The translations under genes and the position numbers were made by a program. Shown piece by piece: positions 1-49,942 of a DNA stretch of 64,000 nucleotides (its first letter is position 1; every line of letters starts with the position of its first letter). Source of the DNA: a bacterium (lineage in GTDB: Bacteria; Patescibacteriota; Patescibacteriia; UBA2196); assembly GCA_035388785.1 (NCBI GenBank), contig DAOOQN010000004.1, forward strand, positions 4,318 to 68,317, in the 5' to 3' direction. The notes under the pieces were generated by a model, which was not told the origin of the DNA, searched no databases, and saw only the letters and a list, made by a program, of their open reading frames with translations.

Positions 1-337
1 CATTTGTAATTGTCATTATACCTGTGGCTTTGCCAGGTTCGGTTTTAAAATTTTGTACCTCAAAACTTTTTACTATTTCTACCTCTTGTGTCGTGAGCGT
101 GCCATTTAAGACTACTTCAGTTGAAGTGGTGTTCAGTGGAATATTAAAAGTAAAGTTTTTTGCTTCCGGGGCTTCTTTGGGTTCCAAAGTAATAACAGCT
201 TTAGACAGAGTGAAGTAAACAATAATTAAAGTTAAAAGTGATGCTAAGATGATAAAAGAGAGTGCTATTTTTTTATATGGTCTATCGGGTGAAACAAATT
301 GTTCTTCTTGGAGGGTCTCTTTGTTTTGTTTAGGCAT
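1..337 (-). CDS. Hypothetical N-terminally membrane-anchored protein, partial (runs off window start). Begins MPKQNKETLQEEQFVSPDRPYKKIALSFIILASLLTLIIVYF...
   Basis: Manual translation of the minus strand from ATG at 337-335. Open to the window edge, with one predicted TM helix. It is absent from the ORF track because no stop falls inside the window. The + strand ORF 24-218 is antisense to it. Confidence 0.45.
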   Translation of the reverse strand, partial: MPKQNKETLQEEQFVSPDRPYKKIALSFIILASLLTLIIVYFTLSKAVITLEPKEAPEAKNFTFNIPLNTTSTEVVLNGTLTTQEVEIVKSFEVQNFKTEPGKATGIMTITN

Positions 338-26190: not shown

Positions 26191-26670
26191 ATGGCTTCCT
26201 TTATTCAACACAATCCAACCGAAACCAAGCCAGACGATAAATTTGAACATAATTTATCTGGCACAGAAACGACTACGGTTTTGACGCCGGAACTTAATAA
26301 ACCACAAGCAACCACGTCAAGTAGTCCTGTTTTAGTGTCAGCTATTTCTGACGTCAATGATGTTCAAAATCAATCTGGTGTAAGTTATAATAAAGATCCT
26401 TTACATGTGGCTATAGAAGATATTTTGGAAGAAAACTTAGCCGACCTTTATGTATCCTTAAGTCCGACTGAACAAATTAATTTTAAAAGGAAAGGCGACG
26501 AAACTGCTGGTAAAATTATAGATCTTTTGGCTACAACACAAGCTACTTTTAAAAAAATTTTTAATTTTATTTTAACGTGGCTAAAAACAATCCCGGGCGT
26601 TAATAAGTTTTTTTTGGAACAAGAAGCCAAGATCAAAGCAGATAAAATTATGCAACTAAAAATAGATTAA
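26191..26670 (+). CDS. Hypothetical protein at the head of ATPase locus A
   Basis: 159 aa. The N-terminus is rich in Thr, Ser and Pro and looks disordered. No motif I can assign. A 5-nt gap separates it from the ATPase gene. Confidence 0.4.
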   Translation: MASFIQHNPTETKPDDKFEHNLSGTETTTVLTPELNKPQATTSSSPVLVSAISDVNDVQNQSGVSYNKDPLHVAIEDILEENLADLYVSLSPTEQINFKRKGDETAGKIIDLLATTQATFKKIFNFILTWLKTIPGVNKFFLEQEAKIKADKIMQLKID

Positions 26671-26675
26671 TTTTT

Positions 26676-29246
26676 ATGCCTCCCTATGTTCCAACCTCAC
26701 CGCTAGAAACAGCTGGCCAAAATTTTTTTAATAGCCCATCTTTTTATGTTGGACTTTTTTTAATTGCCTTTATTGTTTTAGTCGTAATTTGTCTTTTGAT
26801 ATATCGCGCTTACGCGAAACATAATTATAAATTACCAGCTAAATATCGTCAGGTGGTTTTATTAATTTCAATGCCTAAAGAAGCACTGTCTGATAAAGAA
26901 GGTGGCAATGTAAATTCTATTGAAAAAATTCGTGAACAGATATCCTGGGCGGAAAATTTATGGGCACAAATTGGTGGCTTGAAAGCAGAAAAGGGATTCA
27001 AGGCCTGGTTGTATGGTCGGCACGATCATTTGTCTTTGGAGATTGTCGCGCATCAAAAGATGATTTATTTTTATATTGCAGTACCAAAATATTTGCAAAC
27101 CTATCTTGAGCAACAGCTACAAGCGCAATATTCTTATGCTCAAGTTGAAGAGGTTCCGGATTATAATATTTTTTCACCCACCGCGAGCGTTGTTTGTGCT
27201 AGTGTCAAACTTGAGAAACAAAACATGTTTCAAATTAAAACTTATAAAGAATTTGATGCTGACCCGTTAAACTCATTAACCAACATTTTAAGTAAACTTG
27301 GATCTGATGATAGCGCTGCCATCCAATTTGTTGTGCGCTCGGCTCACAAAAAATGGCGTACTGCAGGCTTAAAAATTGCCGCAGCCATGCAGCAGGGTAA
27401 ATCTTTGAAGGATGCTTTAAAAGCTAATAATAAAGATTTATTAAATACTTTAAGTAAGGGTTATAATGCACTGCTAAGCCAAGAAAGTGACAAAAAAAAC
27501 GATCAAGACAAAAGAGATGGTTTAACACCGGGTAGTTATCGTCTGTCGGCCAAAGAAGAAGAATTGGTCAAAAAAATTCAAGAAAAAAGTTCCAAAGCTG
27601 GTTTGGATGTTAATATTCGAGTGGTTGTGGCTGCTCAGAATTTACCGCTTGCTGATGCTTATTTGGCTAATATATTAAATTCTTTTGCTCAATATAATGT
27701 TTATGAATTTGGTAATGCTTTTAAGGTAGCCAAAAATAGTGGTGATGATAAAAATATTTCCGCTTTTATACATAGAATTTTTAATGATAAGAATAGCTTT
27801 GTCTTAAATACAGAAGAGTTGGCTTCGATTTTTCATTTTCCACTACCTTCCTGTGAAACACCAAACATACATTGGTTAGGTGCACGTAAGGCCGCAGCGC
27901 CGGTTAATATTCCGACTGAAGGTGTTGTGCTTGGTAAAAATATTTTTCGTGGCGGAGAAACACTGATTCGTATGAAACAAGAAGATCGCATGCGGCATAC
28001 ATATATTATCGGTATGACTGGTGCTGGCAAATCAGTTTTAATGGAAGAAATGGCCAAACAAGACATTGGGGCCGGTCGAGGTGTTTGTTTTATTGATCCA
28101 CACGGCACGGCTATTGATCGTATTATGCCCTGTATTCCAAAAGAAAGGCTTGAAGATGTTATCTATTTTGATCCTGCTGATACGGACCGACCAATTGGTT
28201 TAAATATGTTGGAAGCCAAGACACAACAAGAAATGGATTTTGCCACTTCAGAAATGATTAGTATTTTTTACAAACTTTTACCAGATCCTGCCATGGCCGG
28301 GCCAATGTTTGAACATTATATGCGTAATGCTTTGCTGGCTTTAATGGCTGATCAGGATGATCCTGGAACCTTGGTGGAGTTAGGACGAATTTTTACTGAT
28401 GAAGATTATCGTAAGAAAAAATTACATTATGTGCGCGATATTTTGGTAAAAGATTTTTGGGAAAGAGAATATGTAGCCTCGCAACGTGGCTCTATGGCTT
28501 CAGATATGCTTTCATATGTCATTTCTAAAACAGGTCGTTTTGTAGAAAATGAAATGATGCGCAATATTATTGGTCAGTCAATTTCAGGGTTTAATTTTCG
28601 CCAAGTTATGGATGAGGGTAAAATTTTGTTAGTCAATCTATCCAAAGGTAAAATTGGCGAGACCAATAGTAGCCTTTTGGGTTTAATTATTGTCTCGAAG
28701 CTACAGATGGCGGCCATGGCCAGGGCGGATTTGCCAGAAGAAAAAAGAAAAGATTTTATGTTATATATTGATGAGTTTCAAAATTATACCACTGATTCTA
28801 TGGCTATCATTTTAGCTGAAGCCAGAAAATATCGTTTAGCATTGATTATGGCTCATCAATATATTACGCAACTAGTCAAAGGTCAGGATACTTCCATTCG
28901 CGATGCTGTCTTTGGCAATGTGGGTAGTATGATTATTTTCCGTATTGGCGTAGAAGATGCCGAGATAATCGCCAAACAGTTTGCGCCCGTCTTTAATCAA
29001 CAAGATTTAATTAATATTGAAAAACGCAATGCTTATGTTAGACTCTTAATTGATGGTACAGCCAGTCGTCCCTTTAACATGGAATCCATGCCTTGGACTT
29101 TTGGTGATGAAAAAATTGTGACTGCCGTGAGTGAGTATTCTCGTCTAAAATATGGTCGTCCCAAAGATGAAGTCGAGAAGGAGATTATCCGACGGTCTAA
29201 AATAGGTGCTCTAGGTAAGGCTGCAGTTGATAATGAAGTTGAATAA
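26676..29246 (+). CDS. Membrane-anchored P-loop ATPase of the HerA/FtsK/TraD-VirD4 (T4CP-like) superfamily, fused form
   Basis: 856 aa. One N-terminal TM helix, a ~400-aa uncharacterised domain, then an ATPase with Walker A IIGMTGAGKSV, a CFIDPHG block, and Walker B YIDEFQNY. It is paralogous to the split pair at 35090-38458. Confidence 0.7.
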   Translation: MPPYVPTSPLETAGQNFFNSPSFYVGLFLIAFIVLVVICLLIYRAYAKHNYKLPAKYRQVVLLISMPKEALSDKEGGNVNSIEKIREQISWAENLWAQIGGLKAEKGFKAWLYGRHDHLSLEIVAHQKMIYFYIAVPKYLQTYLEQQLQAQYSYAQVEEVPDYNIFSPTASVVCASVKLEKQNMFQIKTYKEFDADPLNSLTNILSKLGSDDSAAIQFVVRSAHKKWRTAGLKIAAAMQQGKSLKDALKANNKDLLNTLSKGYNALLSQESDKKNDQDKRDGLTPGSYRLSAKEEELVKKIQEKSSKAGLDVNIRVVVAAQNLPLADAYLANILNSFAQYNVYEFGNAFKVAKNSGDDKNISAFIHRIFNDKNSFVLNTEELASIFHFPLPSCETPNIHWLGARKAAAPVNIPTEGVVLGKNIFRGGETLIRMKQEDRMRHTYIIGMTGAGKSVLMEEMAKQDIGAGRGVCFIDPHGTAIDRIMPCIPKERLEDVIYFDPADTDRPIGLNMLEAKTQQEMDFATSEMISIFYKLLPDPAMAGPMFEHYMRNALLALMADQDDPGTLVELGRIFTDEDYRKKKLHYVRDILVKDFWEREYVASQRGSMASDMLSYVISKTGRFVENEMMRNIIGQSISGFNFRQVMDEGKILLVNLSKGKIGETNSSLLGLIIVSKLQMAAMARADLPEEKRKDFMLYIDEFQNYTTDSMAIILAEARKYRLALIMAHQYITQLVKGQDTSIRDAVFGNVGSMIIFRIGVEDAEIIAKQFAPVFNQQDLINIEKRNAYVRLLIDGTASRPFNMESMPWTFGDEKIVTAVSEYSRLKYGRPKDEVEKEIIRRSKIGALGKAAVDNEVE

Positions 29247-31039: not shown

Positions 31040-32707
31040 ATGAGTTTATCAACCAAATCACAGAACCGCTATAAATTGGCTGGCATTATTATTTTAGCCA
31101 TTTTTTGTGCTCTGATCGTTTATCCAAAAGTTCCTACTGGTACACCTCTGGAAAATTTTTGGAATAAATTTAAATTTCGTCTAGGCCTTGATTTGCAGGG
31201 TGGCGCGCACTTGGTCTATCAAGCCGACACCAGTCAAGTTGAAGGACGCGATCAAGCTTCGGCTGTGGCCGGTGTACGTGATGTTATTGAAAGGCGAGTG
31301 AATGCTTTTGGTGTATCCGAACCAGTTGTCCAAACTAATATGGTGGGTAACGATTATCGTGTTATCGTAGAATTGGCTGGTGTCAAAGACGTTGATCAAG
31401 CCATTCAAATGATTGGTGAAACACCTCTTTTGGAATTTAAAACTCAAAATCCTAATTATAGTTCTGAATTAACAGATGCTCAAAAAGCAGAATTAGAAAA
31501 ATATAACAACGAACAGAAAGCCAAAGCTGAAAAAGTTTTAAAAGAGACTTTGGTAAAAAATTCCGACTTTGAAAGTTTGGCCAAACAATATTCCGAAGAC
31601 CCAGGTTCTAAAGACCAGGGTGGAGATTTGGGTTGGGCCAAAAGAGGTATGTTTGTCAAAGAGTTTGAAGACGAGATTTTTGATATTTTGCAACCTGGTC
31701 AAACTTCACAAATTTTAGTTAAAACCAGTTTTGGTTATCATATAATTAAAAAAATTGCGGTGCGTGGTGAGGGTGTAGACTTAGAAGTCCATGCACAACA
31801 TATTTTATTTAAAACACAAAACGAAGCTGATATTGTTTCTGACGCTAACCAATGGCTCAATACTCAGCTATCTGGTAAAAACTTAACACGCGCTCAGGTG
31901 CAATTTGATCCACAATCTGGCCAACCGCAAGTTGGTTTAGAATTTAATGACGAAGGCAAAACATTATTTGCCGAAATTACTGAACAAAATGTTGGTAAAC
32001 CCGTGGCCATTTTTTTGGATGGTCAACCTATTTCTGTGCCCAGAGTTGATGAACCCATAAAAGAAGGCAAAGCAGTTATTAGTGGTCGTTTTAACATAAA
32101 AGAAGCCAAACAATTGGTGGAACGTTTAAATGCCGGAGCTTTACCAGTTCCAATTACTTTAATTTCACAAGAGACTGTTGGTGCTTCACTGGGACAAGAA
32201 TCTTTAAATAAGAGTTTATTTGCTGGCATTATTGGTTTAGTTGCTGTGGCTTTGTTTATGTTATTTTTTTATCGTCTACCTGGTTTAATTTCAGTAATTG
32301 CTTTAATTATTTATGCTTTGATTAACTTAATGCTTTATAAAACATTGTCTATAACCCTAACTTTGGCTGGCATTGCTGGTTTTATTCTGTCGATTGGTAT
32401 GGCTGTGGATGCTAATGTATTAATTTTTGAACGTCTAAAAGAAGAACTAAAAGCTGGCCGTGAAGTTTCTTCAGCAGTTGACGAGGGTTTTAAAAGAGCT
32501 TGGACGTCTATTCGTGATTCAAACATTTCATCTCTTATCACCTGTGTTATTTTATATTGGATAGGTACTTCAATGGTCAAAGGTTTTGCATTAACCTTGG
32601 CATTGGGTATTTTTATTTCTTTATTTTCTGCCATTACTGTCACCAGAACTTTTTTGAAGCTTTTCTTGATCAAATCTTTCAAAGATAAAAAATGGCTTTT
32701 TGGTTAA
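31040..32707 (+). CDS. secD: Protein translocase subunit SecD with an embedded parvulin (PpiC-type) PPIase domain
   Basis: 555 aa. A TM1 helix and the SecD P1 motif LGLDLQGGAHLVY are followed by a complete parvulin signature (SEDPGSKDQGGDLGWAKRGMFVKEFEDEIFDILQPGQTSQILVKTSFGYHIIKK) at about aa 145-250. The SecD head domain and six C-terminal TM helices follow. Confidence 0.9.
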   Translation: MSLSTKSQNRYKLAGIIILAIFCALIVYPKVPTGTPLENFWNKFKFRLGLDLQGGAHLVYQADTSQVEGRDQASAVAGVRDVIERRVNAFGVSEPVVQTNMVGNDYRVIVELAGVKDVDQAIQMIGETPLLEFKTQNPNYSSELTDAQKAELEKYNNEQKAKAEKVLKETLVKNSDFESLAKQYSEDPGSKDQGGDLGWAKRGMFVKEFEDEIFDILQPGQTSQILVKTSFGYHIIKKIAVRGEGVDLEVHAQHILFKTQNEADIVSDANQWLNTQLSGKNLTRAQVQFDPQSGQPQVGLEFNDEGKTLFAEITEQNVGKPVAIFLDGQPISVPRVDEPIKEGKAVISGRFNIKEAKQLVERLNAGALPVPITLISQETVGASLGQESLNKSLFAGIIGLVAVALFMLFFYRLPGLISVIALIIYALINLMLYKTLSITLTLAGIAGFILSIGMAVDANVLIFERLKEELKAGREVSSAVDEGFKRAWTSIRDSNISSLITCVILYWIGTSMVKGFALTLALGIFISLFSAITVTRTFLKLFLIKSFKDKKWLFG

Positions 32708-32750
32708 TTTTTTGCGTTAAGGAAAAAAATAAATTTAAAATTGTTTTATT

Positions 32751-33680
32751 ATGAATTTACACATCGTCAAAAATCGCAATTATTTTTTCATTTTTTCTGG
32801 AATTCTTGTAGTAGCTGGCCTTTTTAGCTTATATTTTTGGGGTTTAAAACCGGGCATTGATTTTACGGGCGGTTCTTTTTTGGAAATTAAGCTCAACAAT
32901 CAAAGTCAAGTTAATGCCCAAGAAATGGCCACTCAAATTCAAGCTGCTGTGTTAGATATTGGCGAGGTGCGCGTACAACCCACTGCCAGTGGTTTTATTG
33001 CACGTTCTCGTCATTTAACAGAAGCTCAACATCAAAGCATATTAGCAACTATGGATAAATTATATCCAGCCGATTCAACAGATGCTACTCAAGTTTGGGA
33101 AGAAGTAAGATTTGAATCAGTTGGGCCGATGATTGGGGTTGAACTAAAAAATAAAGCCATTTGGGCTTTGGCATTGGCCATGGCAGCCATAATTTTATAT
33201 ATCGCTTGGTCTTTTCGTAAAGTATCACGTCCGGTGGTTTCTTGGAAATATGGTGTTGGTGCGGTGATCGCTCTAATGCACGATTTAATAATTGTGACAG
33301 GAGCTTTTGCTATTTTTGGACATTTTTTTGGCTATGAAGTTGATTTGTTGTTTGTTTCCGCCCTGCTCACCATCCTTGGCTTTTCTGTGCATGATACTAT
33401 TGTTGTATATGATCGTACGCGTGAAAATTTAATTTACAGTCCACAAAAAACTTTTGACGAAACCTTAAATAAAGCTATTAATGAAACCATACACCGTTCC
33501 ATTAACACCTCTTTAACTGTTTTTTTAGTACTTTTAGCCCTTTATGTATTGGGTGGCGTGTCAACACAAAATTTTGTTTTAGCCTTAATGATCGGTGTGG
33601 TTATTGGTACCTATTCGTCAATTTTTGTCGCTTCAACACTGTTGATTGTTTGGCAACGATTGGGAAGTCGTAAAAATTAG
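32751..33680 (+). CDS. secF: Protein translocase subunit SecF
   Basis: 309 aa with a 6-TM SecF topology, immediately downstream of secD. Confidence 0.9.
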   Translation: MNLHIVKNRNYFFIFSGILVVAGLFSLYFWGLKPGIDFTGGSFLEIKLNNQSQVNAQEMATQIQAAVLDIGEVRVQPTASGFIARSRHLTEAQHQSILATMDKLYPADSTDATQVWEEVRFESVGPMIGVELKNKAIWALALAMAAIILYIAWSFRKVSRPVVSWKYGVGAVIALMHDLIIVTGAFAIFGHFFGYEVDLLFVSALLTILGFSVHDTIVVYDRTRENLIYSPQKTFDETLNKAINETIHRSINTSLTVFLVLLALYVLGGVSTQNFVLALMIGVVIGTYSSIFVASTLLIVWQRLGSRKN

Positions 33681-33838: not shown

Positions 33839-34966
33839 ATGAGCGACATTTTAGATAAAGTCATATCTTCGGCCGATTTTAAAGAAAAAACCGCTATCTC
33901 TTGGACAGAGATTGTAAATTCTTTATTGGCTCTAATAAAGGCGCGTGAAGCCGAAATTTTACGTTTACGCTCTGGTTTGTATGACAATAAAGAACATACT
34001 TTGGAAGAAATTGGACGTAAAATGAATTTAACTCGTGAACGAGTGCGTCAATTAGAGAAAAACGCCAAAGATGACATCAAGGCTCATAAAAATTTTGATG
34101 GCATTATGGCACCAGCTAAAAACGCAGTTGAGCGGGCTTTGAATGAACATGGCGGCCTTTCCACTAAAGAAAGAATTTTGCAAACCGTTCTTATTAACTA
34201 TGAAATTGAAGATAATAAAAAGTTTTTACAATTTTTAATTGATAATTTTATTGATGAAGTGCAAGACGTTAAAAATAATCAGTTTGGCGAGGGTTGGCAT
34301 TTAAATGAACAGTATTTGAATTTGGCAGCTGAAGTTTTAGATCAAATTAAAATTTTAATTGAAACTAAAAATAATTTAGTGCAAGAAGATGAGTTGTTGG
34401 AAAATTTTCAAAAAACAGATTTTTATATAAATAATCAGGATAAATTTTTGCCTTTTTTAAGCAAAAATAGCAATGATTTAAGAAAGGTTCTAACTTCTTA
34501 TTTGGATTTATCGCATGAATTTGGTAAAACCCCCTTTAAACAGTGGGGTAAAGCAGACTGGCGCACAGTCACCCCCCGCAGGATTAATGATAAAATTTAT
34601 TCAATTTTGGATTGGTATAAACAACCAATGCACTTTCGTGATATTGCCGATAAAATTAACGCCGCCAAGTTTGATAAAAAAATGGCACATTCGGCCACCA
34701 TTCACAACGACCTGATTGCTGATGAACGTTTTGTTTTAATTGGTCGTGGTGTCTATGCTTTAAAGGATTGGGGTTATAAAAGTGGCGTAGTGGCTGATTT
34801 AATTGAAAAAATTATTAAGGGTGCTGAACAGCCTTTAAATAAAGAAGAAATTATTGCTGAAATTTTAAAACAAAGAGATGTAAAAGCTAACACTGTTTTG
34901 TTAGCACTTAATAAAGATGGTCGCTTTGAAAAAACAATTACTGGTGGATATAAATTAAAAATATAA
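33839..34966 (+). CDS. Sigma-70 region 4-like HTH protein with a C-terminal HARE-HTH-like domain
   Basis: 375 aa. An N-terminal block (EILRLRSGLYDNKEHTLEEIGRKMNLTRERVRQLEKNA) matches the sigma region 4 / LuxR-like HTH. A C-terminal block (IYSILDWYKQPMHFRDIADKIN ... VLIGRGVYALKDW) resembles the HARE-HTH of the RNAP delta subunit. Regions 1-3 of a sigma factor are absent. Confidence 0.5.
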   Translation: MSDILDKVISSADFKEKTAISWTEIVNSLLALIKAREAEILRLRSGLYDNKEHTLEEIGRKMNLTRERVRQLEKNAKDDIKAHKNFDGIMAPAKNAVERALNEHGGLSTKERILQTVLINYEIEDNKKFLQFLIDNFIDEVQDVKNNQFGEGWHLNEQYLNLAAEVLDQIKILIETKNNLVQEDELLENFQKTDFYINNQDKFLPFLSKNSNDLRKVLTSYLDLSHEFGKTPFKQWGKADWRTVTPRRINDKIYSILDWYKQPMHFRDIADKINAAKFDKKMAHSATIHNDLIADERFVLIGRGVYALKDWGYKSGVVADLIEKIIKGAEQPLNKEEIIAEILKQRDVKANTVLLALNKDGRFEKTITGGYKLKI

Positions 34967-34977
34967 TTTTATAAAAA

Positions 34978-35015
34978 AACCTACCTTGATAATTAATAGG
35001 GTAGGTGTTTTTGTT
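34978..35015 (+). terminator. Intrinsic terminator (ACCTACC ... GGTAGGT plus T-run) after the 33839 gene
   Basis: A 7-bp stem with a 13-nt loop is followed by TGTTTTTGTTTT. Confidence 0.5.
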
Positions 35016-35089
35016 TTGCATATTTTATGCTATAATATATATTGGAATTGTTTACATTTTTTGTCTAATTTATTCATTCTTTGTTTTGT

Positions 35090-36502
35090 ATGGAGTTTAT
35101 TTTGGATTTATTAAATTTAGATATAGTTAGTTTATCTACTTTGGGTGCCCATAACCCTTTTTATCTTATTTGGTTTTTCTTTATCCACGGTGGTTGGATA
35201 CTTTTTATTATCACATTTTTATTTCTTAGTCCGGTTCTGTGGATGGATTGGCGCCAAGGCTTGTATGCCAAGACCATTAAATGGATTTTTTTAGCTGTTG
35301 ATGTGCCGAGAAATAATGAACAATCACCCAAGGCAGTTGAACAAATTTTTAATCAAATCTGGGGCTCGATAACCGATTACACACTCTGGGCTAAGTTATG
35401 GCAGGGCAAATTCATGCCAAGTTTTAGTTTGGAATTGGTTTCTATTGATGGTTATATACAATATATTATTCGTACACCCAAACCATGGCGTGATTTAATT
35501 GAGTCAGCAATTTATGCTCAATATCCTGATGCTGAAATAGCCGAGATTGAAGATTATACCAAAGATATTACGCCAGATAATTTTGTGGAGAAGGGTTATG
35601 ATTTGTGGGGTACACAACTACAATTGACCAATTTAGAATATTATCCCATTCGAACGTATCCTTTTTTTGAACATTCTATTGCTAAAAAAATAGTTGATCC
35701 TATGTCGGCTCTACTAGAGATGATGAGCAAGTTAGGTCGTGGCGAACAGTTGTGGTATCAAATCATAATTAAACCCGTTGGTGATGATGTCTGGAAAGTT
35801 GGAGCTGAAAAATTAGTTAAAAAATTAATTGGCGCCGAAACCAAAGAAGAAACCCAAACTATTTTAGATGGTATTTTTAGTCGACTTTATAATACCACTA
35901 ATTTTTTATTACCACTGCAAAGCACTGAACAAAAAAAGGAACAAAAATTACCCTCCAAAGTTCTGTATATGTCAAAGGGGGAGTTGGAAACTGTGGCGGC
36001 TATCGAGATGAAAGCTTCTAAGACTGGTTTTAAAACCAAAATGCGCATGATTTATATTGGCAAAAAAGATGCGTTTTTTAAGCCACGTGGTTTGTCGCCA
36101 TTTTTTGGTGCTTTGCGACAATATGCTGGAGCTAATGGTTTTAAGCCAGCTGGTAAGACAGCCACTAAGGCCGAATATTTTTTTATTAAACCACGCATGT
36201 TATATAAACAAAAAAGAATCTTAAAACATTACAAATCACGCGCGTTGGATGCTGGAGTCAAAGAAGACGGTTATCTTTTAAATGTGGAAGAATTGGCCTC
36301 GGTCTATCACTTTCCTAGTATTGAAGTACCCACCAAGATGGTGCACACCTCTTTGAGTAAAAAAGTTCAGGCACCCATGAACATTCCCTTTGATGATTTT
36401 TTTGAACCGGAAATTTTGAGTAAAAAAGAACCTCAGTCTACAGATAGTATTACAAAAGATTCTGGATCGACTATGGCTCCGCCATCAAATTTACCAATTT
36501 AA
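35090..36502 (+). CDS. TM-anchored uncharacterised domain protein, the N-terminal half of split ATPase module B
   Basis: About 470 aa. It is homologous block-for-block to residues ~60-430 of the fused protein at 26676 (for example ELASVYHFPSIEVP versus ELASIFHFPLPSCETP). I prefer the ATG at 35090 over the TTG at 35081. Confidence 0.55.
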   Translation: MEFILDLLNLDIVSLSTLGAHNPFYLIWFFFIHGGWILFIITFLFLSPVLWMDWRQGLYAKTIKWIFLAVDVPRNNEQSPKAVEQIFNQIWGSITDYTLWAKLWQGKFMPSFSLELVSIDGYIQYIIRTPKPWRDLIESAIYAQYPDAEIAEIEDYTKDITPDNFVEKGYDLWGTQLQLTNLEYYPIRTYPFFEHSIAKKIVDPMSALLEMMSKLGRGEQLWYQIIIKPVGDDVWKVGAEKLVKKLIGAETKEETQTILDGIFSRLYNTTNFLLPLQSTEQKKEQKLPSKVLYMSKGELETVAAIEMKASKTGFKTKMRMIYIGKKDAFFKPRGLSPFFGALRQYAGANGFKPAGKTATKAEYFFIKPRMLYKQKRILKHYKSRALDAGVKEDGYLLNVEELASVYHFPSIEVPTKMVHTSLSKKVQAPMNIPFDDFFEPEILSKKEPQSTDSITKDSGSTMAPPSNLPI

Positions 36503-36511
36503 TTTTTTTGT

Positions 36512-38458
36512 ATGACTGTTTACGACCACGATCACGATCGTGAAATAACATATTTTGCTGCTACAAATTTTCGCAATCAAATGCTAAAGTTTGGCATTAA
36601 AACCGAGGATCGTCGGAGGCATGTTTATATTCTTGGTAAAACCGGTAGCGGTAAAACCACTTTGGAAGCCAATATGGCTCTGCAAGATATTGAACGCGGT
36701 CATGGTATGTGTTTGGTAGATCCACATGGCGATGTCCTAAATTCAGTTTTGGATTATATTCCGTCTCACCGGGTTAATGATGTGATTTACTTTAATCCAT
36801 CTGACACCGCATACCCAATAGCTTTTAATATTTTGGAAAATATTAATCCCGAACATAAGCATTTAGTGGCTTCTGGTTTAATGAGTGTTTTTAAAAAAAT
36901 ATGGGCCAATTTATGGTCGGCGCGCATGGAATATATTTTGAATAATTGTATTTTGGCTCTTTTGGATTCACCGGGTAATACATTATTGGGCATTATGCGC
37001 ATACTCACAGATAAAGATTTTCGTCGTAAAATTGTCGATAATATTAAAGATCCGGTGGTTAAATCTTTTTGGGTCAATGAATATGCCAATTATCAAGATC
37101 GATTTCGTCAGGAAGCCATTGCGCCAATTCAAAACAAAGTTGGACAGTTTTTATCTTCGGCGGTTATTCGTAATATTGTGGGTCAAACAAAATCTACCAT
37201 TGAACCCAGAAAAATAATTGATGAGGGAAAAATTTTACTGCTTGATTTGGCTAAAGGTAAAATTGGTGAAGACAATTCTTCTTTGTTGGGAGCCATGATG
37301 ATTACCAAAATTTGGTTGGCAGCCATGTCGCGTGTTGATATACCGGAAAACGAGCGTCTTGATTTTTATCTATATGTGGATGAGTTTCAGAATTTTGCCA
37401 CCGAATCTTTTGCTGATATTTTATCTGAAGCCAGAAAATATCGTTTAAATTTAACTGTAGCGCATCAATATATTGCCCAACTTGTTTCGCCTGATTCCAC
37501 CCGTGTTAAAGATGCTGTTTTTGGCAATGTGGGCACCATAATTTGTTTTCGTGTTGGTGGTGGTGATGCTAAAGAGTTAATTAAAGAATTTGAACCGACT
37601 TTTTTGGAAGAAGATCTTGTTAACATTGGTAAACATGAAATATTTTTAAAACTGATGATTGACGGTATGGCTTCGGCACCATTTAGTGCCAAAACCCTGC
37701 CGCCACTTTCCACTGGTCGTGAGAATAAAAATCGTGAAAAAATTGTGCGCATTTCACGTGAACGTTATTCTAATACCAAAGAAGAAGTTGAAGAAAAAAT
37801 TATGCGTTGGTCTGGTGTTGAAGAAATGTTTAAAGAGACTGCCAAATCTGAATATGTGGATGAAGAAAAAATGGTTTACAAAGAGACTCAAACTAAAACC
37901 AACAATTTAAGCACCAAGATAAAGGTAGTTGAAACAAAACCTGGGCAAGTGCAAACAGACGATAAAAAACATCTGGATGCTTTTTGTGATAATTGTGGTC
38001 AACCAACTCGTATTAACTTTCTACCAGATTTAAGTAAATCAATTTTTTGTCGTGATTGTTTGAAAGAGTTTAAAAAAGGCAGTATTGATCCACATAAATT
38101 AAAATCAAAAAACGGTCATCTTTCGGATATTGTTAAACAACAAAAGGCGGGTTTAGAACCAACTTTAGCAGTGTCAGAAGGGGCTATTTTAAGCCCTCAA
38201 AATACAAAAGTCTTGGAAAAAAGTTTAGCATCTGCTACAGTTACGGTACCCCCATCACCCGATCAAGTTTTGACAGCCAAAATTAAAAAGGCAAAAATAA
38301 ATTTTTTAGACAATCTAAAATATAAACCAGAGGAAATAAGTCAATCAACCGTCGGCTTGGATGCTTTAAAAGATATAAATCAAGTAGTACCCTTTAATAA
38401 GATTGGAACTAAAAAGGAATCTCAAAAAATTGATCCAGGGCAGGTGATCAGGTTTTAA
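36512..38458 (+). CDS. HerA/FtsK/TraD-VirD4-superfamily ATPase, the C-terminal half of split module B, with a C-terminal Zn-ribbon extension
   Basis: 648 aa. Walker A ILGKTGSGKTT, an LVDPHG block, and Walker B YVDEFQNF are present. It aligns with the C-terminal half of 26676, and adds a ~250-aa tail containing CDNCGQ ... CRDC. Confidence 0.7.
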   Translation: MTVYDHDHDREITYFAATNFRNQMLKFGIKTEDRRRHVYILGKTGSGKTTLEANMALQDIERGHGMCLVDPHGDVLNSVLDYIPSHRVNDVIYFNPSDTAYPIAFNILENINPEHKHLVASGLMSVFKKIWANLWSARMEYILNNCILALLDSPGNTLLGIMRILTDKDFRRKIVDNIKDPVVKSFWVNEYANYQDRFRQEAIAPIQNKVGQFLSSAVIRNIVGQTKSTIEPRKIIDEGKILLLDLAKGKIGEDNSSLLGAMMITKIWLAAMSRVDIPENERLDFYLYVDEFQNFATESFADILSEARKYRLNLTVAHQYIAQLVSPDSTRVKDAVFGNVGTIICFRVGGGDAKELIKEFEPTFLEEDLVNIGKHEIFLKLMIDGMASAPFSAKTLPPLSTGRENKNREKIVRISRERYSNTKEEVEEKIMRWSGVEEMFKETAKSEYVDEEKMVYKETQTKTNNLSTKIKVVETKPGQVQTDDKKHLDAFCDNCGQPTRINFLPDLSKSIFCRDCLKEFKKGSIDPHKLKSKNGHLSDIVKQQKAGLEPTLAVSEGAILSPQNTKVLEKSLASATVTVPPSPDQVLTAKIKKAKINFLDNLKYKPEEISQSTVGLDALKDINQVVPFNKIGTKKESQKIDPGQVIRF

Positions 38459-38466
38459 AACTCCGT

Positions 38467-40392
38467 ATGGCCAATCTTTTTGTCATTGAAGAAAAATCAC
38501 AAAAAATAAAAAATAGTAAACTTGATTTTTATAATCAGCAAATCAGTGGTGAATCTTTTGATTTTGATTCAAAACAAGAAGCACTTAAGGTAACCATTAA
38601 CAAGACCAGGGTGGTTATTTTTTTTATTTTTATTATTTTGTTTTTATTAATTTTTATATATAGAGCTTTTTATTTGCAAATTTTGAAAGGTAATTATTGG
38701 TATAATGTGGCTGAAGGTAATAGAATAAGAATTGAAAAACAAGTGCCACCGCGAGGTATAATTTTTGATCGCAATTTAAAATCTCTAGTTAATAATTCAC
38801 CTGATTTTATTTTATCTTTTGTGCCTTTTGACTTGGTTAATAATGCGGTAGAAATTGATCAAATTGTGTTTTTTTTGCAACAAGAAAAAATATTTTTTTC
38901 TGCTGATGAATTGCGAGAAAAGATAAAAAAAACTGATTCTCAATCCATTGAGCCAGTAGAAATTATTGATCAAATCACTTATGAACAAGCCCTAAAACTG
39001 ATGATGCAGATAGAAAATTTTCCGGCCTTACGTTTGAATTATATTAATAAACGTAATTATATTGATGTACGTTTTGGTTTAGCACATATTTTGGGTTATA
39101 TGGGTAAAATGGATGAAAAATCTTGGCAGAGTATGCAAAATAAAGATTATCTTTTAATTGACTGGATTGGTAAAAGTGGTTTAGAAAAGGTTTATGAAGA
39201 AAAATTACGGGGTGTGGTTGGAAAAAAAGAAGTTGAAGTTGATGCGCGTGGTGAAATCAAAAAAAATATTAGCAATAAAAAATTAGTCAAAGGCAATAGT
39301 TTAATTTTAGGTATTGATGCGGATTTTAATGCTTTTTTGACTGATAAACTGTGCACAGCAGCCAATCTATATGGTGCTAAGGCTGCTGCCTTGGCCGTTA
39401 ATCCGCAGAATGGTGAAATATTAGCTTTAGTGTCCTGTCCTATATATAATAATAACTATTTTAATAACACACTACTCTACCAGGCAGAAATTGAAAATTT
39501 ATTAGAAGATAAAAAACAGCCGCTTTTTAATCGCGCAGTACAAGGTGAGTATCCAGCGGGTTCAATTTTTAAATTAGTCATGGCTGCGGCTGGTTTACAA
39601 GAAAAAATTATTACCGAAGACACAAAGATAAATTCTACAGGTGGCATTAGTATTGGACAGTGGTTTTTTCCAGATTGGAAAGCTGGCGGTCATGGTCTAA
39701 CAAATATCACCAAAGCCATTGCTGAATCAGTGAATACTTTTTTTTATTATGTTGGTGGTGGATTTGGTGATGAATTTTCTGGTTTAGGATTGGAAAGAAT
39801 AGTCAGCTATGCCAATAAGTTTTATTTTAATCACGTCTTGGGTATTGATTTACCGGGTGAGGCCGATGGTTTTTTGCCCAGTCAAGAATGGAAAAAGAAA
39901 AATACCGGAGAAAACTGGTATATTGGTGATACCTATCATCTTTCTATTGGCCAAGGTGATTTAACAGTGACTCCTCTACAGATTTTGTCATTGACCAGTT
40001 ATTTTGCCAATGGTGGCACGCTGTATCAACCCCATTTATTAAAAGGCTTGATTGATGATAAAAATATTACCACCTATATAGAACCAAAAATTTTAGCAAA
40101 AAATATTGTTGACAATTTTAATGTTGAGCTTGTGCGCCAAGGTATGCGTCAAGCGGTTTTATCTGGCTCAGCCAGTTCATTACAAGATTTACCCGTAACT
40201 TCAGCCGCCAAGACCGGCACCGCTCAAGCTGGGGATAATCAACAACCACACGCGTGGTTTACTGTTTTTGCGCCTTTTGAAAAACCAGAAATAGTTATCA
40301 CAGTTTTAATTGAAAATGGTGTTGAGGGTAGTCTTACGGCTCTACCCGTCGTCAAAGATGCTTTGAGCTGGTATTTTACGCGGCCAAAATAA
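38467..40392 (+). CDS. Class B penicillin-binding protein (PBP2/FtsI-type transpeptidase)
   Basis: 641 aa. An N-terminal TM helix, the SxxK motif (GSIFK), SxN, and KTGTA are present. Confidence 0.85.
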   Translation: MANLFVIEEKSQKIKNSKLDFYNQQISGESFDFDSKQEALKVTINKTRVVIFFIFIILFLLIFIYRAFYLQILKGNYWYNVAEGNRIRIEKQVPPRGIIFDRNLKSLVNNSPDFILSFVPFDLVNNAVEIDQIVFFLQQEKIFFSADELREKIKKTDSQSIEPVEIIDQITYEQALKLMMQIENFPALRLNYINKRNYIDVRFGLAHILGYMGKMDEKSWQSMQNKDYLLIDWIGKSGLEKVYEEKLRGVVGKKEVEVDARGEIKKNISNKKLVKGNSLILGIDADFNAFLTDKLCTAANLYGAKAAALAVNPQNGEILALVSCPIYNNNYFNNTLLYQAEIENLLEDKKQPLFNRAVQGEYPAGSIFKLVMAAAGLQEKIITEDTKINSTGGISIGQWFFPDWKAGGHGLTNITKAIAESVNTFFYYVGGGFGDEFSGLGLERIVSYANKFYFNHVLGIDLPGEADGFLPSQEWKKKNTGENWYIGDTYHLSIGQGDLTVTPLQILSLTSYFANGGTLYQPHLLKGLIDDKNITTYIEPKILAKNIVDNFNVELVRQGMRQAVLSGSASSLQDLPVTSAAKTGTAQAGDNQQPHAWFTVFAPFEKPEIVITVLIENGVEGSLTALPVVKDALSWYFTRPK

Positions 40393-45061: not shown

Positions 45062-45135
45062 CGGGATATAGCGCAGTTGGCTAGCGCGCGTCGTTCGGGA
45101 CGACGAGGTCGCCGGTTCGAGTCCGGCTATCCCGA
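45062..45135 (+). tRNA. tRNA-Pro (anticodon CGG)
   Basis: I folded the cloverleaf by hand. Acceptor CGGGATA / TATCCCG. D-arm GCGC-AGTTGGCTA-GCGC. Anticodon arm CGTCG-TTCGGGA-CGACG, giving anticodon CGG with G37. T-arm GCCGG-TTCGAGT-CCGGC. No encoded CCA. Confidence 0.85.
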
Positions 45136-45204: not shown

Positions 45205-45342
45205 ATGGAAGATGAACAAAAAAAATGCACAGCTTGTGGTACCATAATTACTGACGAAACAAAGTGTGCTTGTAGTGAAAATTTATGTGCTGCCTGTTGC
45301 ACCTGTGATCCTGATTGCTCTTGTGGCTGTCAGGATAAATAG
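45205..45342 (+). CDS. 45-aa Cys-rich, metallothionein-like small protein
   Basis: MEDEQKKCTACGTIITDETKCACSENLCAACCTCDPDCSCGCQDK. It has 11 Cys in 45 aa, and its KCAC...LCAAC block resembles the bacterial SmtA KCACEPCLC core. It is below the ORF-track size cutoff. Confidence 0.45.
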   Translation: MEDEQKKCTACGTIITDETKCACSENLCAACCTCDPDCSCGCQDK

Positions 45343-48095: not shown

Positions 48096-49136
48096 ATGTT
48101 TAAAGCTGTTTTTGCCAAGTTTTCACATGACTTAGGGATTGATTTAGGCACAGCCAATACCCTGGTTTATGTACGTGGCAAAGGTATTATTATTAATCAA
48201 CCTTCAGTAGTTGCTATCAATACCAAAACAGATAGAATTTTAGCCGTTGGTGATGAGGCTAGAAAAATGTTGGGTAAGACTCCGCCGCACATTATTGTTT
48301 CTAAACCACTAGTTAATGGAATTATTTCTGATTTTGAAGTCACAGAAAAAATGCTTAAATATTTTATTGACCAAGTACATCGTCAGGCTTATAGTGTTTT
48401 GTCGCGTCCACGGGTGGTAATCGGTATTCCGCTTGATATTACAGAAGTTGAAAAGAAGGCGGTTGAAGATGCGGCACTATCGGCTGGGGCCAGAGAAGTT
48501 TTTTTAGTTGAAGAACCAATGGCAGCAGCTATTGGTGCGCGTTTGCCCATTCAAGATGCTGTGGGTAATATGGTGGTTGATATTGGTGGTGGCACTACTC
48601 AAATTGCGGTTATGTCTTTGGGTGGAGTAGTAGCCAGTAAATCCCTCCCCATCGGTGGTGATGAATTTAATGTTGATATAATTCAATATGTGCGTGACAA
48701 GTTTAATTTATACATTGGTGAAATGACGGCTGAAGATATAAAAATTAAAATTGGCTCTGTAATTTATGAAGATCGTGGTTTGGAAATGGAAGTTCGGGGT
48801 CGTGATGTTCTTTCCGGTTTGCCGCGTGTTAATAAAATTTCCAGCGCTCACATTCGTGAAGCTATTTTTAAGTCCATTCGTACTATTATTGAAAACATCA
48901 AATACACGGTTGAAAATACGCCGCCCGAACTAGTTTCCGAAATATATGAGCGGGGCATTCTTTTAACCGGCGGTGGAGCTCTTTTTCGTGGATTGCCAGA
49001 TTTAATTAAAGAAGAAACCAAAATTCCAACCCAAGTTTTAGATGATCCTTTGACCTCTGTGGTACGTGGTGCTGGAATAATTTTGGAAGATCTTGAGGGT
49101 TTATCCAATATTTTAGTACCCACAATGAAGGATTAA
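48096..49136 (+). CDS. mreB: Rod shape-determining protein MreB
   Basis: 346 aa. The actin-like ATPase motifs are present (DLGIDLGTANTLVYV, VVDIGGGTTQIAV). Confidence 0.95.
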   Translation: MFKAVFAKFSHDLGIDLGTANTLVYVRGKGIIINQPSVVAINTKTDRILAVGDEARKMLGKTPPHIIVSKPLVNGIISDFEVTEKMLKYFIDQVHRQAYSVLSRPRVVIGIPLDITEVEKKAVEDAALSAGAREVFLVEEPMAAAIGARLPIQDAVGNMVVDIGGGTTQIAVMSLGGVVASKSLPIGGDEFNVDIIQYVRDKFNLYIGEMTAEDIKIKIGSVIYEDRGLEMEVRGRDVLSGLPRVNKISSAHIREAIFKSIRTIIENIKYTVENTPPELVSEIYERGILLTGGGALFRGLPDLIKEETKIPTQVLDDPLTSVVRGAGIILEDLEGLSNILVPTMKD

Positions 49137-49139
49137 ATT

Positions 49140-49937
49140 ATGCTTCAAAAGTTTTATAAAAAAAGTTTTTTATTTTTGGTAATAATATTTTTTTTTATTT
49201 CATTGTATTATCTTGGGTTATTTAAACCTCTTAAATCATTCGCTGGTCAAGTTTTAAAGTATCCCTTAGGCTGGTCTTATTCAGCTGGTCGTCAGGTTTC
49301 TTCTTTTTTTAATATTTTTAAAAATAACTCTTACTTAATTAAGAGTAATCAAGAGCTAAGTGATAAATTAATTATCTTAGAACAAGAAAATATTGACTTA
49401 AAAAAAATCATTGAACAAAAAAATATCAGTGATGAAGAATTGCTGTTTTTGAGTCAGCAGAACGTTAAAGCCATTGCTGCCAAAATTATTTCTCGTGGTA
49501 TATCTGGTAATGTAAACACTTTAATTATAAATAAAGGTCAAATTGATGGCCTACGAGAGGGGATGGTAATTACGGCAAAAAATGGTTTGGTTTTAGGTAA
49601 AATAATTAAAACTGAAGATAAACTAGCGCACGTGTTACTTCTAACCGATTCAAATTCACGTCTCAGTGCGGCCAGTGATAAGGATAAAACTTTAGTTGGT
49701 ATAGTTCATGGTAATTTTGATCTGAGTTTGAAATTAGAATACATTTTAAGGGATAAAAACATTGCGGCTAACGATTTAATTGTCACTTCAGGTCAAGAAG
49801 AATTAGTTCCCGCTGGTCTAATTATTGGTACTGTAAATGAGGTCTTTGAAGATTCACGTGAACTTTTTAAAACTGCACGCATTGTGCAGCCGGAAACTGC
49901 TTATAATATTGACATTGTTAATGTAATCATGCCTTAA
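49140..49937 (+). CDS. mreC: Rod shape-determining protein MreC
   Basis: 265 aa. An N-terminal TM helix, a coiled coil, and the conserved block DLIVTSGQEELVPAGLIIGTV are present. It sits immediately downstream of mreB. Confidence 0.7.
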   Translation: MLQKFYKKSFLFLVIIFFFISLYYLGLFKPLKSFAGQVLKYPLGWSYSAGRQVSSFFNIFKNNSYLIKSNQELSDKLIILEQENIDLKKIIEQKNISDEELLFLSQQNVKAIAAKIISRGISGNVNTLIINKGQIDGLREGMVITAKNGLVLGKIIKTEDKLAHVLLLTDSNSRLSAASDKDKTLVGIVHGNFDLSLKLEYILRDKNIAANDLIVTSGQEELVPAGLIIGTVNEVFEDSRELFKTARIVQPETAYNIDIVNVIMP

Positions 49938-49942
49938 AATTT

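What the first reader, a model, noticed from the sequence alone, without database searches (positions are those of the whole stretch)
35090..38458. Locus B: the same module split into two genes, with a C-terminal Zn-ribbon tail, directly upstream of the PBP2 gene
ORF 35090-36502 aligns block-for-block with the N-domain of the fused protein. One example is ELASVYHFPSIEVPTKMVHTS ... QAPMNIPFDD versus ELASIFHFPLPSCETPNIHWLGARK ... APVNIPTEG. ORF 36512-38458 aligns with its ATPase half (YILGKTGSGKTT / LVDPHG / YVDEFQNF). Fused and split paralogues coexisting suggests an ancient duplication with domain fission or fusion. The extra ~250-aa tail with CDNCGQ ... CRDC suggests an added nucleic-acid or partner-binding module. 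The 9-nt gap to the PBP gene suggests co-transcription with cell-wall machinery.
Basis: seen in the sequence. Interest (0 to 1): 0.7.

Follow-up and report, generated by a model that had tools for sequence, protein, structure and literature searches.

The report
Split VirB4-like secretion-type ATPase gene pair
Two adjacent genes in this candidate-phyla-radiation (Patescibacteria) genome together encode a membrane anchor and an ATP-driven motor that a neighbouring gene encodes as one protein; the pair is real and widespread, the anchor has the predicted fold of the front half of the secretion ATPase VirB4, and the link to the cell-wall gene next door is local only.

Summary
ORF1 (35090-36502) matches the N-half of the fused 856-aa protein at 26676-29246 (BLASTP E 3e-22; profile-profile E 1e-45). 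ORF2 (36512-38458) matches its ATPase half (43.5% identity, E 2e-121).

The split is not an artefact. Independent assemblies carry it, and it is kept in about 60 of 76 related Patescibacteria loci. The fused form is a separate, equally widespread orthologous group.

ORF2 is a soluble P-loop ATPase of the VirB4/VirD4 (coupling-protein) clade. It carries a CxxC-x17-CxxC zinc ribbon and a conserved C-terminal PG[QE]xVx motif.

The conserved neighbours are SecD-SecF and a sigma-region-4/HARE-HTH gene. PBP2 follows only in the one 94%-identical relative.

These genes most likely correspond to the 'orphan' coupling-protein homologues reported at about two per Patescibacteria genome, away from type IV secretion loci.

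Most likely mechanism (inferred): a membrane-tethered ring motor assembled from two chains. The substrate is unknown.

I rate it a new variant of a known kind, of moderate interest.

The parts
34979..35006 (+). Terminator-like hairpin with a T-run after the upstream sigma-r4/HARE-HTH gene. It marks the 5' boundary of the locus B transcription unit.
   Evidence: 10-bp stem, 4 GC pairs, tail GTTTTTGTTT. Consensus scan only.
35015..35043 (+). Promoter-like site (TTTGCA, 17-nt spacer, TATATT) upstream of ORF1.
   Evidence: 9 of 12 matches. This is weak evidence, because such sites are as frequent in shuffled sequence.
35090..36502 (+). ORF1, 470 aa. A DUF8128 (PF26449) protein: membrane anchor plus a cytoplasmic domain with a VirB4 N-terminal-domain-like fold.
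35153..35242 (+). The only hydrophobic segment of ORF1 (aa 22-51). The flank before it is acidic and the flank after it is basic, which implies N-terminus outside and globular domain in the cytoplasm.
   Evidence: Kyte-Doolittle window 23-54, mean 2.18; a single long helix, 23-62. The topology is inferred from the positive-inside rule.
36371..36499 (+). Two PxN[IL]P motifs (APMNIP at aa 428-433, PPSNLPI at aa 464-470) separated by a low-confidence linker. The second sits at the extreme C-terminus and is nearly invariant. It is a candidate docking peptide for the ATPase.
   Evidence: P429 and P469 invariant; P433, P465, N467 and L468 at 90% or more; the fused protein has one such motif directly before its ATPase domain. 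The docking role is inferred.
36512..38458 (+). ORF2, 648 aa. A soluble P-loop ATPase of the VirB4/VirD4 (T4CP) clade with a C-terminal tail.
36635..36658 (+). Walker A motif GKTGSGKT (aa 42-49).
37364..37390 (+). Walker B region FYLYVDEFQ (aa 285-293).
37985..38059 (+). CxxC-x17-CxxC zinc ribbon (aa 492-516).
   Evidence: PF23477, 34.0 bits vs cut-off 27. (TIGR04272, 35.3 bits vs cut-off 36). (the same motif in about 45 of about 62 orthologous ATPases). (family members bind Zn by ICP-MS).
38432..38455 (+). Conserved extreme C-terminal motif DPGQVIRF (family pattern PG[QE]x[VI]x, 7-9 residues from the end).
   Evidence: present in 84 of 120 ORF2-family proteins against about 0.004 expected per window. 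Absent from the fused family.
38467..40392 (+). PBP2 (mrdA) gene. It is a neighbour only and is not a conserved part of the module.
   Evidence: TIGR03423, 525.6 bits vs cut-off 455. (adjacent in 1 of 80 related loci).
33839..34966 (+). Gene for a sigma-70 region 4 + HARE-HTH protein. It is a frequently conserved upstream neighbour.
   Evidence: directly upstream of the DUF8128 gene in 34 of 64 loci.
31040..33680 (+). secD-secF, conserved upstream synteny block.
   Evidence: SecF lies within 2.5 kb upstream in 44 of 64 loci.
26191..29246 (+). Locus A: a conserved small ORF (26191-26670, 159 aa) followed by the fused DUF8128-ATPase paralogue (26676-29246, 856 aa).

Best explanation
Locus B is the two-gene form of a membrane ATPase found across Patescibacteria. 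The same genome also encodes it as one polypeptide, at locus A.

Shown:
- ORF1 is a DUF8128 protein with one N-terminal hydrophobic anchor. Its globular domain has the predicted fold of the N-terminal domain of VirB4, the signature ATPase of type IV secretion.
- ORF2 is a soluble Walker A/B ATPase of the VirB4/VirD4 branch of the FtsK-HerA superfamily. By sequence it is nearest to coupling proteins (TrwB, TraD).
- ORF2 has no transmembrane domain of its own. It has gained a CxxC-x17-CxxC zinc ribbon and a conserved C-terminal PG[QE]xVx peptide.
- The break falls exactly in the linker after a PxN[IL]P motif.
- The gene pair is kept adjacent, often overlapping or a few bases apart, in most relatives.

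Inferred:
- The two chains dock and rebuild the locus A architecture. The invariant C-terminal PPxNLP tail of ORF1 is the likely docking peptide.
- They form a membrane-tethered ring motor on the cytoplasmic face.
- ATP hydrolysis drives a polymer or an assembly step at the envelope.
- The zinc-ribbon tail selects the substrate or a partner.
- It is a chromosomal housekeeping machine, not part of a conjugative element. It probably works independently of the Patescibacteria type IV secretion locus.
- The fused state is probably ancestral and locus B is a fission.
- The PBP2 adjacency is a recent local rearrangement.
For: - Paralogy.
- The split is real and conserved. Three independent assemblies hold identical genes. 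An ATPase gene lies directly downstream in about 62 of about 76 loci with room, with gaps from -113 to +168 nt and no conserved frame. The only apparent fusion, L016, is a run of 100 N.
- Two distinct orthologous groups.
- ORF2 has no hydrophobic segment and ORF1 has one.
- Terminal motifs.
- Housekeeping context with no relaxase, integrase, VirB6 or VirB8 in the window and unremarkable composition.
- Literature: 5,713 VirD4-type homologues in 2,918 of 3,035 Patescibacteria genomes, only 148 near virB4, with VirB4 in 2,417 genomes (PMC12102498).
Against: - No experiment or complex prediction shows that ORF1 and ORF2 bind each other.
- About 14 related loci have a DUF8128 gene without an adjacent ATPase gene.
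- The VirB4-like fold rests on a predicted structure. Sequence identity is 8-9% and Foldseek TM-scores are low (about 0.3). No sequence-level link was found: no PF03135 hit, and hhalign against pGO1 TrsD gave probability 0.4%.
- The part of TrwK that aligned was not printed. I deduce it is the N-terminal domain only because no ATPase-domain structures appear among ORF1's hits.
- The substrate is unknown.
- Independence from the type IV secretion system is argued from distribution, not tested.
Confidence: 0.65

Rival explanations
1. The pair is a true type IV coupling protein. It works in trans with the Patescibacteria type IV secretion system encoded elsewhere and delivers substrates to it. 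The VirB4-like N-domain would serve to dock onto the VirB3/VirB6/VirB8 inner-membrane complex.
For: - The best sequence matches are coupling proteins: TrwB_AAD_bind, TraG-D_C, TraD, the CD1115 family, TrwB and DotL.
- Coupling-protein genes are often encoded away from virB4 (PMC12102498).
- About 80% of Patescibacteria genomes have VirB4.
- In S. epibionticum both the secretion system and one ATPase of this type (SEML1_0142) are essential.
Against: - The homologues occur in 2,918 genomes, against 2,417 with VirB4, and are almost never linked to it.
- Relaxases are rare, so there is no DNA substrate of the classical kind.
- ORF2 lacks the coupling-protein transmembrane domain.
- All NCBIfam coupling-protein equivalog cut-offs are missed by a wide margin, e.g. 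50.5 vs 366 bits.
- The other S. epibionticum homologue (SEML1_0293) is dispensable while the secretion system is essential.
Confidence: 0.22
2. The module works with the Sec pathway (SecDF, SecA), for example in export or membrane insertion or extraction of envelope proteins or pilins. VirB4 is thought to dislocate pilin from the membrane in a comparable way.
For: - SecF lies within 2.5 kb upstream in 44 of 64 loci.
- SecA lies further upstream in 19 of 47 loci.
- The VirB4-like N-domain.
Against: - The synteny may simply be inherited within one class-level lineage.
- A sigma-r4/HARE-HTH gene often intervenes.
- In this window a terminator-like hairpin separates the two units.
- Nothing suggests protein-substrate recognition. 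The zinc ribbon and the coupling-protein-like helical insert point, weakly, to nucleic acid.
Confidence: 0.08
3. One reading: the module is functionally coupled to cell-wall synthesis and is co-transcribed with PBP2.
For: An 8-nt gap and no predicted terminator between ORF2 and mrdA.
Against: - PBP2 follows the ATPase only in L004, the 94%-identical relative. In the other 79 loci it does not.
- Elsewhere PBP2 sits with mreB-mreC (L019).
- In this genome mreBCD (48096-50449) and rodA/ftsW (5346-6449) lie elsewhere.
Confidence: 0.03
4. A remnant of an integrated conjugative element, or an anti-phage defence ATPase (HerA, DptH or MADS type).
For: - PADLOC mad8 hits of 57-66 bits and weak HerA hits.
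Against: - Fixed chromosomal synteny with housekeeping genes across many lineages.
- Near-universal at about two copies per genome.
- No partner defence genes, relaxase or integrase nearby.
- Normal GC content.
- Listed as a core, Patescibacteria-enriched family in S. epibionticum.
Confidence: 0.02

Closest known systems
VirB4 (TrwK of plasmid R388; PDB 7o42, 8rtd; C-terminal domain 4ag5)
   Different: - No sequence-level membership: TIGR00929 scores 16-28 bits against a cut-off of 643, and PF03135 gives no hit.
- It has its own N-terminal membrane anchor.
- No VirB3, VirB6 or VirB8 neighbours.
- It is split into two genes at locus B.
- It carries a zinc-ribbon tail.
Type IV coupling proteins (VirD4, TrwB, TraD, DotL)
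   Same: These are the best sequence relatives of ORF2. The Pfam families TrwB_AAD_bind, T4SS-DNA_transf and TraG-D_C score above cut-off. The paralogue's model shows a helical insert between Walker A and Walker B.
   Different: - ORF2 has no transmembrane domain.
- The anchor is a separate protein with a VirB4-like domain that coupling proteins lack.
- There is no relaxase or secretion locus nearby.
- All curated equivalog cut-offs are missed.
The 'orphan' VirD4-type homologues of Patescibacteria (Quinonero-Coronel et al. 2025, PMC12102498)
   Same: Almost certainly the same genes: about two per genome, chromosomal and far from virB4. [quoted passage not shown]
   Different: The parts of that paper I read do not describe the DUF8128 N-domain, its VirB4-like fold, the fused and split paralogue pair, the zinc ribbon or the SecDF synteny. 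No paper in the searched library mentions DUF8128.
TrsD-TrsE of Staphylococcus plasmid pGO1 (a separate VirB4-N-terminal-like protein next to VirB4)
   Same: The same gene logic: a gene for a VirB4-N-terminal-like protein directly upstream of the ATPase gene (description in PMC12102498).
   Different: - No detectable sequence relationship to DUF8128 (hhalign probability 0.4%).
- TrsD is 227 aa, against 470 aa for ORF1.
- TrsD-TrsE lies inside a complete conjugation locus.
S. epibionticum SEML1_0141/0142 and SEML1_0294/0293 (Wang et al. 2023, PMC10633639)
   Same: - Both large proteins are Patescibacteria-enriched core proteins with the P-loop or coupling-protein domain starting near residue 380-400.
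- One follows a 139-aa hypothetical gene, as at locus A.
- The other follows a sigma-like gene, as in the locus B context.
   Different: - Both appear fused (1019 and 921 aa).
- Tn-seq calls SEML1_0142 essential and SEML1_0293 non-essential.

Membership tests
DUF8128 (Pfam PF26449) | Match to the family profile | tested here: met
   Precomputed Pfam hits for ORF1, its homologues and the N-half of the fused protein. The local Pfam copy lacks this model and returned nothing.
Type IV coupling protein (VirD4/TrwB/TraD) | FtsK/HerA-type nucleotide-binding domain with Walker A/B and a match to coupling-protein profiles | tested here: met
   TrwB_AAD_bind 40.6 bits (cut-off 20.5), T4SS-DNA_transf 24.2 (20.1), TraG-D_C 26.1 (22). 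TrwB is the best solved sequence match.
Type IV coupling protein (VirD4/TrwB/TraD) | N-terminal transmembrane domain on the same polypeptide | tested here: not met
   No hydrophobic segment in ORF2. Walker A begins at residue 42.
Type IV coupling protein (VirD4/TrwB/TraD) | Curated NCBIfam equivalog or subfamily score | tested here: not met
   SXT_TraD 50.5 bits vs 366; CD1115 family 44.4 vs 250; TOL TraD 30.6 vs 647.
Type IV coupling protein (VirD4/TrwB/TraD) | Genetic association with a relaxase or mating-pair-formation genes | tested here: not met
   None among the annotated ORFs of the 64-kb window or in related loci.
VirB4 | N-terminal domain fold followed by an ATPase domain | tested here: met
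VirB4 | Match to VirB4 sequence profiles (TIGR00929, PF03135) | tested here: not met
   TIGR00929 scores 16.0 and 28.2 bits against a cut-off of 643.1, and only at the P-loop. No PF03135 hit in any of 45 DUF8128 proteins.
VirB4 | Neighbouring VirB3, VirB6 or VirB8 genes | tested here: not met
   Absent from the window and from related loci.
TrsD/TraD family (split VirB4 N-terminal-like protein) | Sequence similarity to TrsD | tested here: not met
   hhalign of the DUF8128 alignment against pGO1 TrsD: probability 0.4%. The target was a single sequence, so sensitivity was limited.
CxxC-x17-CxxC zinc ribbon (PF23477 / TIGR04272) | Profile match and four cysteines with 17-residue spacing | tested here: met
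   PF23477 scores 34.0 bits vs 27. TIGR04272 scores 35.3 vs 36, just below. The motif spans aa 492-516. Zinc binding itself is not testable here.
FtsK/SpoIIIE DNA translocase | Match to FtsK profiles, with FtsK as the nearest fold | tested here: not met
PBP2 (mrdA), the downstream gene | TIGR03423 equivalog score | tested here: met
   525.6 bits vs cut-off 455.

The most novel reading that the evidence does not exclude
DUF8128 plus its ATPase is a secretion-system-independent envelope translocase found across Patescibacteria. It keeps a VirB4-type N-terminal domain on a coupling-protein-type motor. That would make it a surviving intermediate between VirB4 and coupling proteins, or their ancestral form.

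The two paralogues would have divided the work. The fused one, with its small partner protein, would be essential. The split one would have gained a zinc ribbon and terminal docking peptides to handle a nucleic-acid substrate, such as DNA scavenged from the host.
Probability: 0.15. Interest if true: 0.8.

Novelty: new variant of a known kind. Interest (0 to 1): 0.55.

Why it matters
Patescibacteria make up a large share of bacterial diversity. Nearly every genome carries about two coupling-protein-like ATPases of unknown role, away from the type IV secretion genes.

Three results turn these vague 'orphan' annotations into a defined two-component machine with testable interfaces:
- These ATPases always come with a VirB4-like membrane-anchored N-domain, either fused or as a separate gene.
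- The two forms are ancient paralogues.
- The split form has its own zinc ribbon and terminal peptide motifs.

The hybrid architecture also bears on how VirB4 and coupling proteins diverged.

A genetically tractable relative, S. epibionticum, appears to have both paralogues, one essential and one dispensable. If orthology holds, function can be probed directly.

Tried and rejected
- **Frameshift or assembly artefact.** Rejected. Identical split genes occur in ENA and two Logan assemblies. The split is kept in relatives with varied gap lengths and frames.
- **Programmed read-through.** ORF1 and ORF2 share a frame here. The frame is not conserved among relatives, where about one third are in frame, as chance predicts.
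- **The one 'fused' locus-B-type gene (L016, 1016 aa).** It is an artefact of a 100-N run.
- **Sequence-level links from DUF8128 to known families.** All found nothing:
  - local Pfam and NCBIfam scans
  - a Pfam scan of all 45 family members at E up to 10
  - a PDB sequence profile search
  - hhalign against pGO1 TrsD
- **Discriminating VirB4 from coupling protein for the ATPase half.** hhalign of the fused family against pGO1 TrsE (VirB4) and TrsK (coupling protein) gave equal weak matches (E about 1e-5 each).
- **Databases that were unavailable.** R388 (BR000038) is not in the plasmid collection. The afdb50 fold library was unavailable.
- **Defence-system reading.** Only generic ATPase similarity (mad8, HerA).
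- **Loci without an adjacent ATPase.** What follows is glycosyltransferases, DUF4012 or DUF11 surface proteins, or DnaG-RpoD, not an alternative motor.
- **Rfam and tRNA scans.** Nothing relevant to the locus.
Full report
**Setting**

The window is low-GC (about 35%) with even composition. It is filled with housekeeping genes: dnaE, prfA, rodA/ftsW, leuS, dnaK-dnaJ, corA, secD-secF, mrdA, mreBCD, mnmA, secA, ackA, a 2-oxoacid:ferredoxin oxidoreductase and recJ.

The exact ORF1 and ORF2 proteins are on record from an NCBI 'MAG TPA bacterium' contig of 340 kb. The closest species-level genome is Patescibacteria group bacterium UBA2196, at 94% identity. So this is a chromosomal region of a candidate-phyla-radiation bacterium.

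**Observation**

ORF1 (35090-36502, 470 aa) and ORF2 (36512-38458, 648 aa) exist as described. The fused comparator is ORF 26676-29246 (856 aa).

- BLASTP within the window: ORF1 vs fused aa 27-413, E 3.5e-22, 23% identity. ORF2 aa 20-447 vs fused aa 424-854, E 2.5e-121, 43.5% identity. Nothing else scores below E 0.1.
- Profile-profile comparison of the two families: probability 100%, E 1.1e-45 over 379 columns.
- Both N-domains are Pfam DUF8128, PF26449.

Small corrections. The ORF2-PBP2 gap is 8 nt. The ORF2 tail is about 200 aa. ORF1 and ORF2 share a reading frame and are separated by TAA TTT TTT TGT.

**Is the split real?**

Yes.

- The same two genes occur in at least three independent assemblies (ENA and two Logan runs).
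- A DUF8128 profile scan of one genome per species found at least 582 relatives. I examined 80 loci.
- In about 62 of about 76 loci with enough downstream sequence, an ATPase gene without an N-domain follows directly. Gaps run from -113 to +168 nt and the frame is not conserved. That argues against both error and programmed read-through.
- The single apparent fusion (L016) spans a run of 100 N.
- The best 120 relatives of ORF1 are all 382-551 aa. The 150 best cluster representatives are 366-691 aa.
- The best 120 relatives of ORF2 are 536-797 aa and lack PF26449.
- The best 120 relatives of the fused protein are 751-904 aa. All carry PF26449 and none carries the zinc finger.
- In a neighbour-joining tree of ATPase domains the two types are reciprocally monophyletic. 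Identity is 66% and 73% within types and 44% between them.

So the duplication predates the divergence of the sampled lineages (Kuenen-, Kerfeld-, Buchanan-, Magasanik-, Uhr- and Falkowbacteria, and Paceibacter).

**What the parts are**

ORF1:
- It has one hydrophobic stretch (aa 22-51) between an acidic N-terminus and a basic flank. By the positive-inside rule the globular part is cytoplasmic.
- No sequence method links it to a characterised family.
- An AlphaFold2 model built on 45 homologues is confident (pLDDT 80.3, pTM 0.75).
- The 13 significant Foldseek hits are all TrwK chains.
- ORF1 has no P-loop, and none of the many solved ATPase domains (4ag5, TrwB, HerA) appears in its hit list. 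The match must therefore be to VirB4's N-terminal domain. This is a deduction, since the aligned ranges were not printed.

ORF2:
- It has Walker A (aa 42-49) and Walker B (aa 285-293) motifs.
- It scores above cut-off for the coupling-protein families TrwB_AAD_bind, T4SS-DNA_transf and TraG-D_C, and for DUF87.
- TrwB and DotL are its nearest solved sequences.
- It has no transmembrane segment.

All curated equivalog thresholds for TraD, VirD4, VirB4 and CedD are missed by a wide margin.

**Tail and terminal motifs**

- The ORF2 tail holds a CxxC-x17-CxxC zinc ribbon at aa 492-516. PF23477 is above cut-off and TIGR04272 is 0.7 bit below.
- The same motif is present in about 45 of about 62 orthologues.
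- Small archaeal proteins with this domain bind zinc by ICP-MS (PMC12704099).
- Beyond the zinc ribbon the tail is variable, but 84 of 120 family members end in PG[QE]x[VI]x, 7-9 residues from the C-terminus. The window has DPGQVIRF. About 0.004 matches are expected by chance, and the fused family lacks the motif.
- Split-type DUF8128 proteins carry PxN[IL]P twice. One copy aligns with the single copy that precedes the ATPase domain in the fused protein. The second is nearly invariant at the extreme C-terminus: PPSNLPI.

I read these as docking peptides acquired or retained after fission. That is inference.

**Neighbourhood**

- A terminator-like hairpin (34979-35006) and a weak promoter-like site precede ORF1. 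No terminator is predicted between ORF1, ORF2 and mrdA. Local co-transcription with PBP2 is therefore plausible.
- Across relatives, PBP2 follows the ATPase only in L004, the 94%-identical genome. Elsewhere PBP2 sits after mreB-mreC (L019).
- The conserved neighbours lie upstream. SecF is within 2.5 kb in 44 of 64 loci. A sigma-70-region-4/HARE-HTH gene is directly upstream in 34 of 64. One or the other is present in 58 of 64. SecA lies further upstream in 19 of 47.
- Locus A has its own conserved context: corA on the opposite strand, then a small 159-193-aa protein with a conserved helical C-terminal half, then the fused gene. That small protein has no counterpart at locus B.

**Comparison with what is known**

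- A 2025 survey found 5,713 VirD4-type homologues in 2,918 of 3,035 Patescibacteria genomes, with only 148 near virB4. VirB4 was present in 2,417 genomes. The authors noted that these genes may have been exapted (PMC12102498). Two per genome fits the A and B paralogues seen here.
- The sections of that paper I read do not mention the N-domain, and no paper in the searched library mentions DUF8128.
- That survey also reports TrsD, a separate VirB4-N-terminal-like protein next to virB4. In pGO1, trsD sits directly upstream of the VirB4 gene. This is the same gene logic as locus B. However, DUF8128 shows no sequence relation to TrsD.
- In S. epibionticum Tn-seq tables, SEML1_0142 is 1019 aa, has its P-loop domain at 381-800, is preceded by a 139-aa hypothetical gene, and is essential. 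SEML1_0293 is 921 aa, has its coupling-protein domain at 402-719, is preceded by a sigma-like gene, and is dispensable. Both are flagged as core and Patescibacteria-enriched (PMC10633639). Their resemblance to loci A and B is a lead. I could not fetch their sequences, so orthology is untested.

**Mechanism**

Shown:
- homology of the two loci
- conserved fission at the linker
- a membrane anchor on ORF1 only
- the VirB4-like fold (from a predicted structure)
- a coupling-protein-like motor
- chromosomal housekeeping context

Inferred:
- ORF1 and ORF2 dock to form a membrane-tethered ring ATPase equivalent to the locus A protein.
- ATP hydrolysis drives translocation or assembly at the envelope.
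- The zinc-ribbon tail recruits the substrate or a partner.

I favour a role independent of conjugation, and probably of the type IV secretion locus, because the family is more widespread than VirB4 and never linked to it. A role in trans as the secretion system's coupling protein remains the main rival. Sec-linked, cell-wall-linked, mobile-element and defence readings are weaker, for the reasons given under each rival.

**Verdict**

The thing itself is a catalogued but uncharacterised family. The new points are the VirB4-like identity of DUF8128, the fixed fused and split paralogue pair, the terminal motifs and the SecDF-side synteny. I rate it a new variant of a known kind, with interest 0.55.

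Noticed in passing
window 26191-26670: A small ORF (159 aa, no Pfam hit, no hydrophobic segment) lies directly upstream of the fused DUF8128-ATPase gene. The arrangement corA(-) | small ORF | fused gene recurs in three distant relatives. The C-terminal half is conserved (...IPGVNKFFLEQEAKIKADKI). It is a likely accessory subunit of locus A, with no counterpart at locus B. In S. epibionticum a 139-aa gene in the same position (SEML1_0141) is called essential.
   Followed up: partly
window 38432-38455 and ORF2 homologues P0121-P0240: A conserved extreme C-terminal peptide PG[QE]x[VI]x is present in 84 of 120 split-type ATPases and absent from the fused family. Its binding partner is unknown.
   Followed up: partly
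window 33839-34966: A 375-aa protein made of sigma-70 region 4 plus a HARE-HTH domain, with no regions 2 or 3. It lies directly upstream of the DUF8128 gene in 34 of 64 related loci. A sigma-like gene in the equivalent position in S. epibionticum (SEML1_0294) is essential by Tn-seq.
   Followed up: partly
window 45205-45342: A 45-aa ORF with 13 cysteines (MEDEQKKCTACGTIITDETKCACSENLCAACCTCDPDCSCGCQDK) lies between tRNA-Pro(cgg) at 45062-45135 and the MgsA-like AAA+ gene. It could be a metal-binding or modified peptide, or it could be chance.
   Followed up: no
window 38467-40392, 48096-50449 and 5346-6449: The cell-elongation genes are scattered. mrdA (PBP2) is detached from mreB-mreC-(mreD) and from rodA/ftsW. 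In relative L019, PBP2 follows mreB-mreC.
   Followed up: partly
L047, L057, L062, L066, L074 (downstream of the DUF8128 gene): In five related genomes the DUF8128 gene is followed by a GT4 glycosyltransferase, a DUF4012 protein of about 800-900 aa and a DUF11/DUF7619 surface-type protein of about 650 aa, not by the ATPase. Where the ATPase partner sits in those genomes is unknown.
   Followed up: partly
L016 5221-8289: An apparent 1016-aa fused DUF8128-ATPase-zinc-ribbon gene in a public MAG is produced by a 100-N run that bridges two genes. This is a caution for automated domain-architecture counts.
   Followed up: yes
window 31040-32707: SecD carries an inserted rotamase (PpiC-type) domain, according to precomputed Pfam hits (Rotamase, Rotamase_3).
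   Followed up: no
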